Shown here piece after piece: positions 28,870 through 31,900 of a DNA stretch of 64,000 nucleotides. Each line of letters starts with the position of its first letter. Within the stretch, counting starts at the first letter, position 1. The DNA comes from Mytilus edulis (lineage: Eukaryota), in NCBI RefSeq assembly GCF_963676685.1, contig NC_092344.1, forward strand, positions 20,150,001 to 20,214,000. The letters run 5' to 3'. The position numbers are program-made.

Positions 28870-28910
<41 letters not shown>

Positions 28911-31900
28911 TCTATAAAAACGACCAACCAGCAAATTTACTATGTACCGGATCGTCTAGAATAGGCGATACTATGCAGATAAGGAAAAAATTATATCAGT
29001 CTAAAGATTTGCACAACGGTACTGATATAAGATGTTATAATACGAAAATGTTGTTATTAAATCGTGCTGACAAATATTTCGGCTCAACAAATGGCCTTCT
29101 TCAAGTGTCACAAGTTTTAACAATAGTGATACATAATGTATAAGGTGTAAAAATAGATCAGTAATAATACAGATAAGTTTTGGTCGATTGATTTTAATCC
29201 AAAATCTTGAATATCATAATATAAACAAAACACTATAATTCAATATACGTGACTGTGTATATTATCAATAAAAATGAGTGAAAAAACAAAACCGTTAGTA
29301 TTTCTTATTGATGCCGTTTGGATGGTGTACATTAAGTTCCTTTATCCAAAAGCTTTCCCGAACCTGTCGCTGGGCATCACTCCAGTGAATATTCTGTTCA
29401 ATCACTAGAATTTTCATGCGGTTAAAGTCATCAGGTTTGTGACCCGACTGTCTGAAGTGCTGAAATACTGGGAGAAGTGGCTTCTTAGAGATATCACTCC
29501 TATATATATATATAGGGAAGAACCAAAAATTTGCGAAAGCAAATTTACAGATCTAACATTGTTGGGTTGATGTTTAGACGAGTTGTATATATATATATAT
29601 ATATTTGAACGTAGTTTTCAATTTAGACTCGTTTATATATACAACTCGTCTAAACATCAACCCAACAATGTTAGATCTGTAAATTTGCGGGACGGCTACA
29701 GTGCAGGCGATTTGGTGTCACGATATCTCAGTAGCATGGGTTCGAATCCCGGCGAGGGAAGAACAAAAAATTTGCGTAAAGCAAAATTACAGATCTAACA
29801 TTGTTGGGTTGATGTTTAGACGAGTTGTATATACATAATGTACACAGCCATGTATCACCATCATTGTTGGTGATCCGATCGATAAATCTGTTGTAGAGTT
29901 GTCACTGACTCAGACGTACTTATAACTATAATTATTTTCTGTGACTGTATCTTGCATTAATTTGACGCTAGATTAAAACTGACGAGGAAAGGTAACACAC
30001 GACCACCGAAAGCTTTATTATTGTGAAGCCAAGGTGGTCGTGTGGTCTAGCGGGACGGCTACAGTGCAGGCGATTTGGTGTCACGATATCTCAGTAGCAT
30101 GGGTTCGAATCCCGGCGAGGGAAGAACAAAAAATTTGCGAAAGCAAATTTACAGATCTAACATTTTTGGGTTGATTTTTAGACGAGTTGTGTATACATAA
30201 TTGCTGGTGATCCGATGGATAAATCTGTTGTAGAGTTGTCACTGACTCAGACGTACTTATATATATGTTTTCAATTTAGACTCGTTTATATATATTGAGG
30301 ATGTGGAAAGGTAATATAAGGTATAATGACTTGTCATTTATTTTACCAAATCATTTTAAGGTGTAAACATGGTATTAAAATTTGCTATTAGTCCATAGAA
30401 AATTAAAATTTTGATGCACGAAAGTCAGCGACAGCCACAAAAGAATAAAATGTACATTTGTTTTGGTCTACTTATTACATAAACATTTCATAAACTTTTT
30501 ATCGATTTAATCATGACTTCGTTGCCAGATATTCCTTATTGGTATGCCTTTTTTACTGGTCTAAATACTTTAACAATTTGTTTATGGCTAGTTTACAGAC
30601 TCCGATATTACAATTAAAATATCTATAAAGAATTCACAGATGAGGGGAGATAACTCTGAACACAAAAATGACAAACAAATGTCTAATGGAAAGCTAGGAA
30701 TTATTACACAGATAATGGTTAAAGAAGTCGATAGTGATCTTTTTAACATAAAATAATTTAAAGGAGCTCGATTTTACTATGAAAAACTTTGTTTTTGAAA
30801 GGATTTTTTTTAAATTTATGATATATAAGAATTTAGTATTTAAAACATCTCTTTCCGTACATCATAAATATAAGTATAAATGTATATATTTATTAGCTAT
30901 AAATGCAGAAATGTTTATAATAAAAAGATAACAATGGATTTCTTTGAAAAGACAGCTGAACATTCAGTGTTAACTATTTCATCTTTCATTGATATTCACT
31001 GTATTCACTGCATCGTGACTCGTAACTTTATGGCTAAACTAGAGCTCTAAACTGTGATCAAGTGTCGCTCACCTAAGTCTATGTGAAAAGCATCTTCAGC
31101 ATTATAGATATTTTTGGGCAATTTCATATTACTGAAACCTTTTTGGTATTTGAAGTTTGTTTCAATTTATTATAATTTTATAAAATTAGCCAAAATCATA
31201 AATAATTGATTATCAGTTCATTGGGAAATAACTCCTATATGATATCAACTGACAATTATTTGTATGTATCTTTGTATTTACAGTTTGTTACTTGATGTGT
31301 TAAGATTAAAGTTGTACAGAGAACATTTGAGTCATTTACAGTCATTTAAAAGTGATGGAAGAGCTCACAACATCCTGCGAGATGTCAACTAAGAACCCAC
31401 CAAGCTTGACAACAGAGAAATAATATCGGCAATTGAAGAACAACGTGACGATGTGGCAACTAGTTACAGAATTGAACAAGAACAAGTGTGACCTACCTCT
31501 TACACGGAAGCCAAGAAAAATAGCATAATAAACTAGATTTGCCATTGCAAGCAATAGCGGATGTCACCCTTCCCCCTATTGCCACTAAGCGACAGCCATT
31601 TCTATGGCAACGGCAGCCATTTTCAAATTTTCAAAGTCATAAGTCTCATCTTTACTTGTCAGTTAACAATAATATCAAGTTTCATTAAGTTCAAAGCATT
31701 TTGAAAAATTTTGACATTTTTGCAGTTTCCATGGCCACGGTAGCCATTTTGGAAATTCCAACTTCAAAAGTCTCATGCTGACTTGACAGTCAACAATCCT
31801 GTTAAGTTACATCAATTTTGGAGCATTTTGAAATTTTTGAAATTTTTGACATTTTGATTGGTTCCTATGGCAACAGAGACCATTCCCAAAATTTAATGGC

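What the first reader, a model, noticed from the sequence alone, without database searches (positions are those of the whole stretch)
28907..29501. Penelope-like element 3' end with its own hammerhead-like motif, sandwiched among the retrozyme copies
Seen: a 68-codon stop-free GIY-YIG C-terminus missed by the ORF track, and ~185 nt downstream a minimal hammerhead-like motif (29110-29068) with a palindromic stem III, the same design as the retrozyme's. Both ends abut (TA)n. Known: PLEs carry minimal hammerheads in their pseudo-LTRs and are the proposed mobilisers of non-LTR retrozymes. Inference: this family is a candidate autonomous partner, found at the same target site.
Basis: partly seen in the sequence, partly recalled or inferred. 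Interest (0 to 1): 0.72.

Follow-up and report, generated by a model that had tools for sequence, protein, structure and literature searches.

The report
Truncated Penelope-like retroelement copy in mussel DNA
This is a dead, front-truncated copy of a Penelope-like jumping gene that landed in a TA-repeat tract of a mussel-like genome and carries a slightly broken hammerhead-ribozyme-like motif in its tail, which is ordinary for this kind of element.

Summary
Window 28907-29501 (minus strand) is a 595-bp, 5'-truncated copy of a canonical Penelope-like element (PLE) with a C-terminal endonuclease. Its 68 stop-free codons are 93% identical over their full length to the C-terminus of a 563-aa Mytilus edulis protein carrying an RT domain, and 96% identical to a 167-aa GIY-YIG protein. 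Both ends abut (TA)n, the published preferred target of PLEs with a CX2-5CxxC linker, which close relatives carry (PMC8557442).

The motif at 29110-29068 is real. It has the helix topology and four published hallmarks of PLE minimal hammerheads. It is the only such hit in the window, against 6 of 400 shuffles with any hit. However, its first catalytic box reads CUUGAAGA, one base too many, and no Rfam hammerhead model matches it. It is probably the family's ribozyme in a decayed or variant form.

The neighbouring "retrozyme" repeats are not shown to be retrozymes. They have no canonical hammerhead, and their 5' part folds as a conserved rod. They share no sequence with the PLE tail. The partner idea is already in print and gains nothing firm here. 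This is an ordinary finding.

The parts
28871..28906 (.). (TA)18 tract abutting the 3' end of the PLE copy. It continues the (TA)n that ends an R fragment (28831-28870).
28907..29294 (-). 388-nt 3' non-coding region of the PLE copy (part of what would be the pseudo-LTR in a tandem copy).
   Evidence: No similarity to R above shuffles. No second copy in the window.
29068..29110 (-). Minimal hammerhead-like motif. Helix I is UGACA/UGUCA; box 1 is CUUGAAGA (one base too many); one unpaired A follows; helix II is GGC(CA)...(UG)-GCC; then GAAA; helix III is a loopless AUAU; H17 is U.
   Evidence: No Rfam hammerhead hit.
29295..29297 (-). TAA stop codon of the PLE ORF, at the same position as the end of P0151 and P0152 (...NGINKKY).
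29298..29501 (-). [quoted passage not shown] The piece starts just after the ...NGH of relatives and so lacks the GIY and YIG motifs, the linker and the whole RT. It cannot encode an active enzyme. The 5' boundary is ambiguous by about 3 bases because it runs into (TA)n.
29501..29514 (.). (TA)7 tract abutting the truncated 5' end of the PLE copy. It is followed by a 5'-truncated R copy.
27863..28186 (-). Full-length copy of the neighbouring repeat R. Its 5' box reads CUGACGU in this copy, and its 3' end lies at (TA)n 27853-27871.
28831..28870 (+). R fragment (3' half of its middle part) that runs into the (TA)n in which the PLE copy sits.
29515..29604 (+). 5'-truncated R copy, starting at ...GGGAAGAACC and ending in (TA)n 29586-29604.
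29634..29688 (-). Inverted R fragment placed head-to-head against the next R copy. Together with 29539-29604 it forms the long inverted repeat that produces spurious miRNA-family hits.
29687..29930 (+). 5'-truncated R copy, 95% identical to 27862-28104.
29966..30294 (+). Full-length R copy. It holds the CUGACGA...GAAA pair of boxes at 29979-30013 and a 28-bp tail (30267-30294) that is also seen at 29614-29641.

Best explanation
The feature is a dead-on-arrival, 5'-truncated copy (595 bp, minus strand) of a canonical Penelope-like retroelement with a C-terminal GIY-YIG endonuclease. Its family carries the CX2-5CxxC linker typical of the Neptune and Nematis clades. The host is a Mytilus-like bivalve.

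Inferred mechanism, from published PLE biology. The element's endonuclease nicked a (TA)n tract. That tract was supplied here by a SINE-like repeat (R) that carries (TA)n. The reverse transcriptase then copied the element RNA from its 3' region by target-primed reverse transcription and stopped early. Only the last 68 codons, the stop codon and 388 nt of 3' non-coding sequence were left.

That 3' region carries the family's minimal type I hammerhead motif, of the dimer-dependent design found in PLE pseudo-LTRs. In this copy the first catalytic box has one extra U (CUUGAAGA), so this copy is most likely catalytically inert. Whether the extra base is private to this copy or a family trait is not known.

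What is shown: the identity of the peptide, the RT + EN architecture of its relatives, the (TA)n flanks, the absence of the rest of the element from the window, and the presence and rarity of the motif. What is inferred: the insertion mechanism, homology of the motif to PLE hammerheads, and its inactivity.
For: Peptide identity. It is 93% identical at 100% coverage to the C-terminus of P0152 (Mytilus edulis; RVT_1 at residues 73-276) and 96% identical to P0151 (GIY-YIG, PF01541). In a phmmer search of 1.84 billion representatives, 175 proteins reached E<=1e-3 and 42 reached E<=1e-10.

Family architecture. Searching with P0152 scored 8000 candidates, of which 3162 reached E<=1e-10. Most of the 120 rows listed carry PF00078 plus PF01541. 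The named rows come from Mytilus edulis, M. trossulus, Pecten, Crassostrea, Ostrea, Pinctada and Pleurodeles. An alignment of 12 relatives shows a conserved C-x4-C-xx-C linker, two Cys between GIY and YIG, and the H, H, RE and N residues. The window piece starts right after ...NGH and ends at the shared stop.

Truncation. tblastn with 5 relatives finds no other PLE coding piece in the 64 kb.

Target. Both ends lie at (TA)n, and such tracts cover only 132 of 64000 bp. Published passages state that (TA)n is the preferred target of PLEs with this linker (PMC8557442).

Motif. It is the sole hit of the PLE-min-HHR descriptor in the window, against 6 of 400 shuffles with any hit. It lies on the sense strand in the 3' region, where PLE hammerheads are drawn (PMC8557442, Fig. 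1 legend). [quoted passage not shown] Helices I and II appear in the minimum-energy fold of the motif alone and of the whole 388-nt region.
Against: No hammerhead family is among the Rfam hits at any threshold or search size. I could not run a positive control showing that those models detect PLE minimal hammerheads.

The CUGANGA box is not met. Helix II is 3 bp, or 5 bp with a bulge, and not the 6-8 bp reported for PLE min-HHRs (PMC4209133). The folding energy is unremarkable, with z = -1.25 and 25 of 200 shuffles folding at least as well.

The descriptor was written after the motif was seen. A looser one finds 6 loci in the real window against 1.07 per shuffle.

No second copy of the family's 3' region could be obtained, so neither conservation nor covariation is known. 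The pseudo-LTR or tandem arrangement cannot be seen in a truncated copy. Clade placement rests on a linker motif, not on an RT tree.
Confidence: 0.72

Rival explanations
1. The hammerhead-like motif is a chance resemblance in an AT-rich 3' untranslated region. Under this reading the PLE family either has its ribozyme elsewhere in the pseudo-LTR, in a part not retained in this truncated copy, or has none.
For: The first catalytic box is non-canonical. No Rfam hammerhead hit was found even when only 121 bases were searched at E<=10. Folding z-score is -1.25. A loose descriptor finds 5 other loci in the window that are clearly not ribozymes. The stricter descriptor was built after the fact.
Against: Only 6 of 400 shuffled windows give any hit with the PLE-type descriptor, and the one real hit falls on the sense strand within 388 nt of PLE tail. 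It shows four hallmarks that PMC4209133 lists as emerging independently of the search descriptor. [quoted passage not shown]
Confidence: 0.3
2. The flanking R repeats are non-LTR retrozymes, or an equivalent non-autonomous element, mobilised by this PLE family. Both use the PLE endonuclease to enter (TA)n and share a minimal, palindromic-helix-III hammerhead design.
For: R copies end in (TA)n; 4 of the 8 (TA)n tracts in the window lie in the R cluster. Two R copies are 5'-truncated, and one of them (29515-29604) starts directly at (TA)n. One pair lies head-to-head (29634-29688 against 29687-29930), an arrangement described for PLE insertions (PMC8557442, Fig. 2 legend). One R copy has CUGACGA ... 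GAAA followed by the palindrome AGCU. The general hypothesis is in print (PMC7229834 passages; preprint 10.64898/2026.07.22.740005, abstract and section 14).
Against: R has no hit with the canonical, loose or PLE-type hammerhead descriptors or with Rfam. The second copy reads CUGACGU, and no helix I can be drawn. The two copies share a rod-like fold in which GAAA sits inside the stem that would have to be helix II, with 1 compensatory and 2 wobble changes keeping that rod. The PLE 3' region and R show no similarity above shuffles, whereas pLTR homology is the published criterion. The published mussel retrozyme hammerheads cleave efficiently as single units (PMC7229834 passages), which does not fit a loopless 2-bp helix III. 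The shared (TA)n is explained without partnership.
Confidence: 0.12
3. The copy was not truncated at integration. It is the remnant of a longer PLE insertion whose upstream part was lost later, by deletion or recombination between (TA)n tracts or by the R insertions next to it.
For: The 5' boundary lies exactly at a (TA)n tract followed by a 5'-truncated R copy. The locus is a nest of rearranged repeats.
Against: No further PLE coding sequence is found anywhere in the 64 kb, on either side of the R cluster. 5' truncation is the usual state of PLE copies; PMC4209133 reports that most motifs are single and 'probably related to truncated PLEs'.
Confidence: 0.15

Closest known systems
Canonical C-terminal EN+ Penelope-like elements with the CX2-5CxxC linker (Neptune and Nematis clades; Arkhipova 2006 as cited in PMC8557442)
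   Same: A single ORF with RT followed by a GIY-YIG endonuclease. Two Cys lie between GIY and YIG (the CCHH motif). A C-x4-C-xx-C motif lies upstream of the endonuclease. Insertion is into (TA)n. Copies are 5'-truncated. A minimal hammerhead-type motif lies in the 3' region.
   Different: The window holds only the last 68 codons and the tail. The choice between Neptune and Nematis was not resolved, because no named reference sequences were available for an RT tree. The hammerhead box has an extra U in this copy.
Minimal type I hammerheads of metazoan PLE pseudo-LTRs (Cervera and de la Pena 2014, PMC4209133)
   Same: Short helix I (5 bp), an unpaired nucleotide between A9 and G10.1, the G10.1-C11.1 pair, a GAAA box, a loopless palindromic helix III that implies action as a dimer, and location in the non-coding flank of a PLE.
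   Different: Box 1 is CUUGAAGA, not CUGANGA or the reported U3-A8 variant. Helix II is 3 bp (5 bp with a bulge) rather than 6-8 bp. No second copy is available to show a consensus family or covariation. No activity data exist.
Naiad PLEs of bivalves (N-terminal EN; PMC8557442, including Naiad_Mgal in its supplement)
   Same: A related GIY-YIG endonuclease, a (TA)n insertion bias, and abundance in mussels.
   Different: In Naiads the endonuclease is N-terminal and the ORF runs on into the RT. Here the endonuclease ends at a stop codon followed by the 3' tail, and the 93%-identical relative has the RT upstream of the endonuclease. The copy is therefore not a Naiad.
Non-LTR retrozymes of mussels (Cervera and de la Pena 2020, PMC7229834)
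   Same: The neighbouring R repeat is of similar size (about 325-350 bp against 350-390 bp). It occurs head-to-tail once (29687-29930 and 29966-30294) and holds the two hammerhead boxes in one copy.
   Different: R has no canonical or Rfam-detectable hammerhead. Its 5' part folds as a rod. It carries a GGTTCGAATCC word like a polymerase III B box (consensus recalled, not from a call). The published mussel sequences are in supplementary figures that I could not see, so identity or non-identity with R is unchecked.

Membership tests
Penelope-like element (canonical, C-terminal EN+) | A single ORF with a reverse transcriptase followed by a C-terminal GIY-YIG endonuclease | tested here: met
   The window piece lacks the RT because of truncation. 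Its 93%-identical relative P0152 has RVT_1 (residues 73-276) upstream of the same C-terminus. Most listed relatives carry PF00078 plus PF01541.
Penelope-like element (canonical, C-terminal EN+) | CCHH motif with two Cys between the GIY and YIG motifs | tested here: met
   It is seen in P0151 and 10 further relatives in the alignment; P0152 lacks the GIY stretch. The window piece retains only the part from the first His onward.
Penelope-like element (canonical, C-terminal EN+) | Pseudo-LTRs arising from a tandem or partial-tandem arrangement | not testable with these tools
   The window holds a single 5'-truncated copy and no second copy. No eukaryotic genome collection was open.
Penelope-like element (canonical, C-terminal EN+) | RT groups with PLE RTs (sister to telomerase RT) in a phylogeny | not tested
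   No named PLE reference RTs could be obtained. The supplement of PMC8557442 returned no occurrence of Neptune or Nematis.
Neptune / Nematis-type PLE | [quoted passage not shown] | tested here: met
   C-x4-C-xx-C is conserved in the relatives aligned. It lies upstream of the window piece.
Neptune / Nematis-type PLE | Insertion bias for (TA)n | tested here: met
   Both ends of this one copy lie at (TA)n, and such tracts cover 132 of 64000 bp. This is a single insertion, so it is not a statistic for the family.
Hammerhead ribozyme, minimal type I of PLEs | Catalytic box C3-U4-G5-A6-N7-G8-A9 | tested here: not met
   The box reads CUUGAAGA. Among CUGANGA...GAAA pairs up to about 90 nt apart, none in the window has a helix II of 3 or more pairs, and none of the CUGANGA words listed lies in the 3' region. 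The motif appears only when one edit is allowed.
Hammerhead ribozyme, minimal type I of PLEs | GAAA box with C11.1 before it and A15.1-U16.1 after it, and H17 not G | tested here: met
   The sequence is CGAAAUAUU|U.
Hammerhead ribozyme, minimal type I of PLEs | Three-helix topology, with helix I of 4-5 bp, an unpaired nucleotide between 9 and 10.1, G10.1-C11.1 and palindromic 15.2-16.2 | tested here: met
   The features are taken from PMC4209133.
Hammerhead ribozyme, minimal type I of PLEs | Large helix II (6-8 bp) | tested here: not met
   3 contiguous pairs, or 5 with a 1-nt bulge.
Hammerhead ribozyme, minimal type I of PLEs | Match to a curated hammerhead covariance model | tested here: not met
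   No hammerhead family is among the hits. No positive control for min-HHRs was possible.
Hammerhead ribozyme, minimal type I of PLEs | Conservation and covariation across copies; self-cleavage | not testable with these tools
   No other copy was found in the window or in the one open collection. Cleavage needs a bench assay.
Non-LTR retrozyme (the flanking R repeats) | A type I hammerhead in each repeat unit | tested here: not met
   R gives no hit with any descriptor or with Rfam. The boxes are intact in 1 of the 2 copies that hold the region. The consensus fold is a rod with GAAA inside the stem.
Non-LTR retrozyme (the flanking R repeats) | Short head-to-tail tandem repeats of 170-400 bp | tested here: inconclusive
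   There is one head-to-tail pair separated by 35 bp (29687-29930 and 29966-30294). The other copies are dispersed, inverted or truncated.
Non-LTR retrozyme (the flanking R repeats) | Sequence homology to the pLTR of a PLE (criterion of preprint 10.64898/2026.07.22.740005) | tested here: not met
   Local alignment scores of the 388-nt PLE tail against 3 R copies, in both orientations, lie within or barely above 200 shuffles. Only the retained part of the pLTR could be compared.

The most novel reading that the evidence does not exclude
The R repeats would be a SINE-like, polymerase-III-box-bearing non-autonomous element that is copied by this (TA)n-seeking PLE family rather than by a LINE. The 5'-truncated and head-to-head R copies, and the PLE copy in the same (TA)n tract, would then be footprints of one machinery. 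The two hammerhead-like boxes at the R 5' end would be a relic of a PLE pseudo-LTR. That would give a concrete autonomous/non-autonomous PLE pair in a mollusc, with a defined target.
Probability: 0.1. Interest if true: 0.55.

Novelty: new member of a known kind. Interest (0 to 1): 0.22.

Why it matters
It matters little beyond annotation. It adds one more truncated copy of an abundant bivalve PLE family, behaving as published: (TA)n target, 5' truncation and a minimal hammerhead-type motif in the tail. Two things have some value. First, it shows that short stop-free endonuclease tails missed by ORF length filters can be assigned confidently by homology. Second, the family offers a test case for whether PLE minimal hammerheads tolerate or lose core positions. 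The broader idea that PLEs mobilise retrozymes is already in print and is neither strengthened nor weakened decisively by this locus.

Tried and rejected
- Pfam on the 68-aa peptide and on two overlapping frames gave no relevant family at E<=1.
- Rfam gave no hammerhead family in any of five scans: gathering score on the whole window, and E<=10 on the whole window, on 4.5 kb, on 121 b and on 131 b. The hits were only miRNA-like matches caused by inverted repeats.
- ARAGORN found no tRNA in the window, so the tRNA-likeness of R rests on box-like words only.
- A canonical hammerhead descriptor gave 0 hits in the window.
- The PDB sequence search with P0152 gave 0 hits at E<=1.
- Pfam at E<=10 on P0152 did not reproduce the precomputed PF26215 and PF28514 labels, so I do not name those families.
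- The search for related loci with P0151 in genome contigs gave 47 pattern matches, none confirmed.
- An exact 30-base search of genome contigs gave 0 matches. Both scans covered prokaryotic genomes only.
- A search for other copies of the PLE fragment in the window found only 13-14-base chance words.
- A search for named Neptune or Nematis references in the supplement of PMC8557442 found none.
- Follow-up of the sub-threshold SECIS hit, reading TGA as U, found no convincing ORF.
- The Naiad reading was rejected, because the endonuclease is followed by a stop codon and the RT lies upstream in the close relative.
- Structure prediction, complex prediction and the ESM Atlas were not used, because the family assignment did not need them.
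Full report
**What is in the sequence**

On the minus strand, bases 29501-29298 give 68 codons without a stop, ending in TAA at 29297-29295. Downstream lie 388 nt of AT-rich non-coding sequence, reaching 28907. There a (TA)18 tract begins (28871-28906). At the other end the frame runs straight into a (TA)7 tract (29501-29514). The window holds only 8 tracts of (TA)>=5, 132 bp of 64000 in total, so having both ends at such tracts is not chance. The window has no N. Nothing in it was taken for human.

**Identity of the peptide**

Pfam sees nothing in the 68 residues alone. 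Homology is nevertheless clear.
- A phmmer search of 1.84 billion representatives gave 175 hits at E<=1e-3 and 42 at E<=1e-10. Nearly all were short fragments, and several of the longer ones carry PF01541, the GIY-YIG domain.
- A word-indexed search for longer proteins found P0152. It is 563 aa, is named 'uncharacterized protein [Mytilus edulis]', and is 93% identical over 100% of the query. It has RVT_1 at residues 73-276 and the same C-terminal ...NGINKKY.
- The same search found P0151, a 167-aa protein that is 96% identical and matches GIY-YIG at E=1.6e-8.
- Searching with P0152 scored 8000 candidates, of which 3162 reached E<=1e-10. Most of the 120 listed carry both PF00078 and PF01541, and the longest are about 900-960 aa. 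The named ones come from Mytilus edulis, M. trossulus, Pecten maximus, Crassostrea virginica, Ostrea edulis, Pinctada imbricata and the newt Pleurodeles waltl.

An alignment of the C-termini of 12 relatives shows four things:
- a conserved C-x4-C-xx-C linker;
- two Cys between the GIY and YIG motifs;
- the downstream His, His, Arg-Glu and Asn residues;
- the window piece starting right after ...NGH.

According to passages of PMC8557442, the CCHH motif marks canonical EN+ PLEs, and the CX2-5CxxC linker marks the Neptune and Nematis clades. The element is not a Naiad. In Naiads the endonuclease is N-terminal, whereas here it ends at a stop codon and the RT lies upstream in the close relative. 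I could not place the RT in a tree, because no named reference sequences were available.

**State of the copy**

tblastn with five relatives finds no other PLE coding sequence in the 64 kb. The copy therefore lacks the RT, the linker and the GIY and YIG motifs. It is a dead, 5'-truncated insertion.

The mechanism I propose is inferred from published PLE biology: the endonuclease nicks an AT-rich target, reverse transcription is target-primed from the 3' region of the RNA, and it terminates early. This rests on passages of PMC8557442 and of PMC11167929. The latter reports AT-rich DNA cleavage and internal initiation of reverse transcription for an Anolis PLE.

Target-site duplications cannot be read inside (TA)n, as PMC8557442 also notes.

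**The hammerhead-like motif**

The motif lies at 29110-29068 on the sense strand, 184 nt after the stop codon and 161 nt before the 3' end. It reads UGACA-CUUGAAGA-A-GGCCAUUUGUUGAGCC-GAAA-UA-U-U-UGUCA.

It matches the PLE minimal-hammerhead design in several ways:
- helix I is 5 bp;
- there is an unpaired nucleotide between A9 and G10.1;
- the G10.1-C11.1 pair is present;
- the GAAA box is present;
- helix III is loopless and palindromic (AUAU).

These are features that PMC4209133 (parts 1-2 of 4 read) lists as hallmarks of PLE minimal hammerheads emerging beyond the search descriptor.

It departs from that design in three ways. The first box has one base too many. If it is instead read as U3, helix I loses register. 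Helix II has 3 contiguous pairs, or 5 with a bulge, rather than 6-8.

The statistics are as follows.
- The strict descriptor gives 0 hits in the window.
- A loose descriptor, allowing one edit in box 1, gives 6 loci in the window against a mean of 1.07 in 60 dinucleotide shuffles. The other 5 loci are low-complexity sequence.
- A PLE-type descriptor gives exactly 1 hit, this one, against a mean of 0.015; 6 of 400 shuffles had any hit. That descriptor was written after I had seen the motif, which inflates its apparent significance.

Helices I and II are part of the minimum-energy fold of the motif alone and of the whole 388-nt region. The energy itself is unremarkable (z = -1.25).

No hammerhead family is among the Rfam hits at gathering score or at E<=10, down to a 121-base search. 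I had no positive control for minimal PLE hammerheads, so this negative result carries limited weight.

My reading, at about 0.6-0.65, is that this is the family's ribozyme motif in decayed or variant form, and that it is inactive in this copy. The importance of C3 and G8 is supported by the mutant data quoted in PMC11167929. That an insertion within the box is not tolerated is my own recollection of hammerhead biochemistry.

No other copy of the 3' region could be obtained, so conservation is unknown.

**The neighbours**

The PLE copy sits in a 2.5-kb nest of a repeat that I call R, about 325-350 bp long. Its copies are:
- full copies at 27863-28186 (-) and 29966-30294 (+);
- 5'-truncated copies at 29515-29604 (+) and 29687-29930 (+);
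- fragments at 28831-28870 (+) and 29634-29688 (-).

Copies are 86-95% identical to one another. R carries (TA)n internally and at its 3' end. The tract holding the PLE copy continues the (TA)n that ends the R fragment at 28831-28870.

R contains the word GGTTCGAATCC and an upstream TGGTCTAGCGG. These resemble polymerase III B and A boxes, but those consensus sequences are recalled and come from no call. ARAGORN and Rfam find no tRNA there.

It fails as a hammerhead on several counts.
- Helix II has only 2 closing pairs.
- No helix I can be drawn.
- The other full copy reads CUGACGU.
- No descriptor and no Rfam model hits it.
- The two copies share a rod-like fold of -39.5 kcal/mol for one copy, in which GAAA lies inside the long stem. 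One compensatory and two wobble changes keep that rod. With only two sequences this is weak evidence.

The published mussel retrozymes are 350-390-bp repeats whose hammerheads cleave as single units (PMC7229834, passages). Their sequences are in supplementary figures that I could not read, so I cannot say whether R is that family.

**The partner hypothesis**

That PLEs may mobilise non-LTR retrozymes was proposed in PMC7229834. It is argued for vertebrates in a 2026 preprint from co-occurrence in 32 of 35 species and from pLTR-retrozyme homology in Xenopus (10.64898/2026.07.22.740005; abstract and section 14 read; its supplements are closed).

At this locus the 388-nt PLE tail and R show no similarity above shuffles. 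The shared (TA)n context is real. It is also expected from the known (TA)n preference of such PLEs together with the (TA)n that R itself carries.

Two points lean the other way: a 5'-truncated R copy begins directly at (TA)n, and one R pair lies head-to-head, an arrangement described for PLE insertions (PMC8557442, Fig. 2 legend). Twin priming by LINEs gives similar pictures (recalled). I put the partner reading at about 0.1.

**Context and limits**

The locus lies between the Wnt exons (9110-9529 and 13653-14156, + strand) and a single-exon sulfotransferase ORF (39512-40420, - strand). The Wnt pieces were searched separately, exon by exon.

Family-wide DNA analyses therefore stayed undone: consensus of the 3' region, pseudo-LTRs, ages and target statistics. 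The supplements of PMC4209133 and PMC7229834 (figures) and of the preprint were not seen, and they may bear on the motif and on the identity of R.

**Verdict**

This is an ordinary, truncated copy of a known kind of retroelement that behaves as published. Its hammerhead-type motif is interesting only as a possible core variant. The link to the neighbouring repeats is unproven.

Noticed in passing
window 62842-62906 (-): A SECIS_1 match lies just below Rfam's gathering score (32.3 bits against 35, E=0.017 for the whole window). Reading TGA as U in the 1.1 kb upstream on that strand showed no convincing selenoprotein frame. The coding part may lie beyond the window end.
   Followed up: partly
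window 9110-9529 and 13653-14156 (+): Two open frames match the Wnt family (E=5.6e-33 and 3.6e-58, covering profile positions 60-161 and 151-305). They are probably two exons of one Wnt gene. They were searched separately and not joined.
   Followed up: no
window 39512-40420 (-): An uninterrupted 303-aa frame matches Sulfotransfer_2 over the whole profile (E=1.2e-60). It looks like an intronless carbohydrate sulfotransferase gene.
   Followed up: no
window 57898-58596 (-): A 233-aa open frame has an EF-hand pair near its C-terminus (EF-hand_7, E=5.1e-12).
   Followed up: no
window 28466-28628: An imperfect inverted repeat of about 158 bp (77% between arms) gives sub-threshold plant-miRNA-family hits on both strands. 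It looks like a MITE-type hairpin, just left of the R/PLE nest.
   Followed up: no
window 29967-30053 (+) and 28185-28101 (-): The first 87 nt of the R repeat fold into a long rod (-39.5 kcal/mol) shared by both full copies. One compensatory change (U-A to C-G) and two wobble changes keep the pairs. The 3' arm of the rod contains the A-box-like word.
   Followed up: partly
window 29614-29641 and 30267-30294 (+): A 28-bp stretch that is 100% identical follows the (TA)n tail of two R copies. R may therefore have a short extension beyond its (TA)n, loosely reminiscent of the optional 30-40-bp 'tail' of PLE insertions.
   Followed up: no
window 48639-48748, 49006-49112, 50838-50952: Three to four hairpins give sub-threshold MIR1520-family hits of 29-35 bits against a gathering score of 53. 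This is probably another family of inverted-repeat elements.
   Followed up: no
proteins P0170 and P0245: Two close relatives of the PLE ORF are named 'peptide-methionine (R)-S-oxide reductase' by one source, although their listed domains are those of the PLE family. This looks like a mis-transferred name.
   Followed up: no
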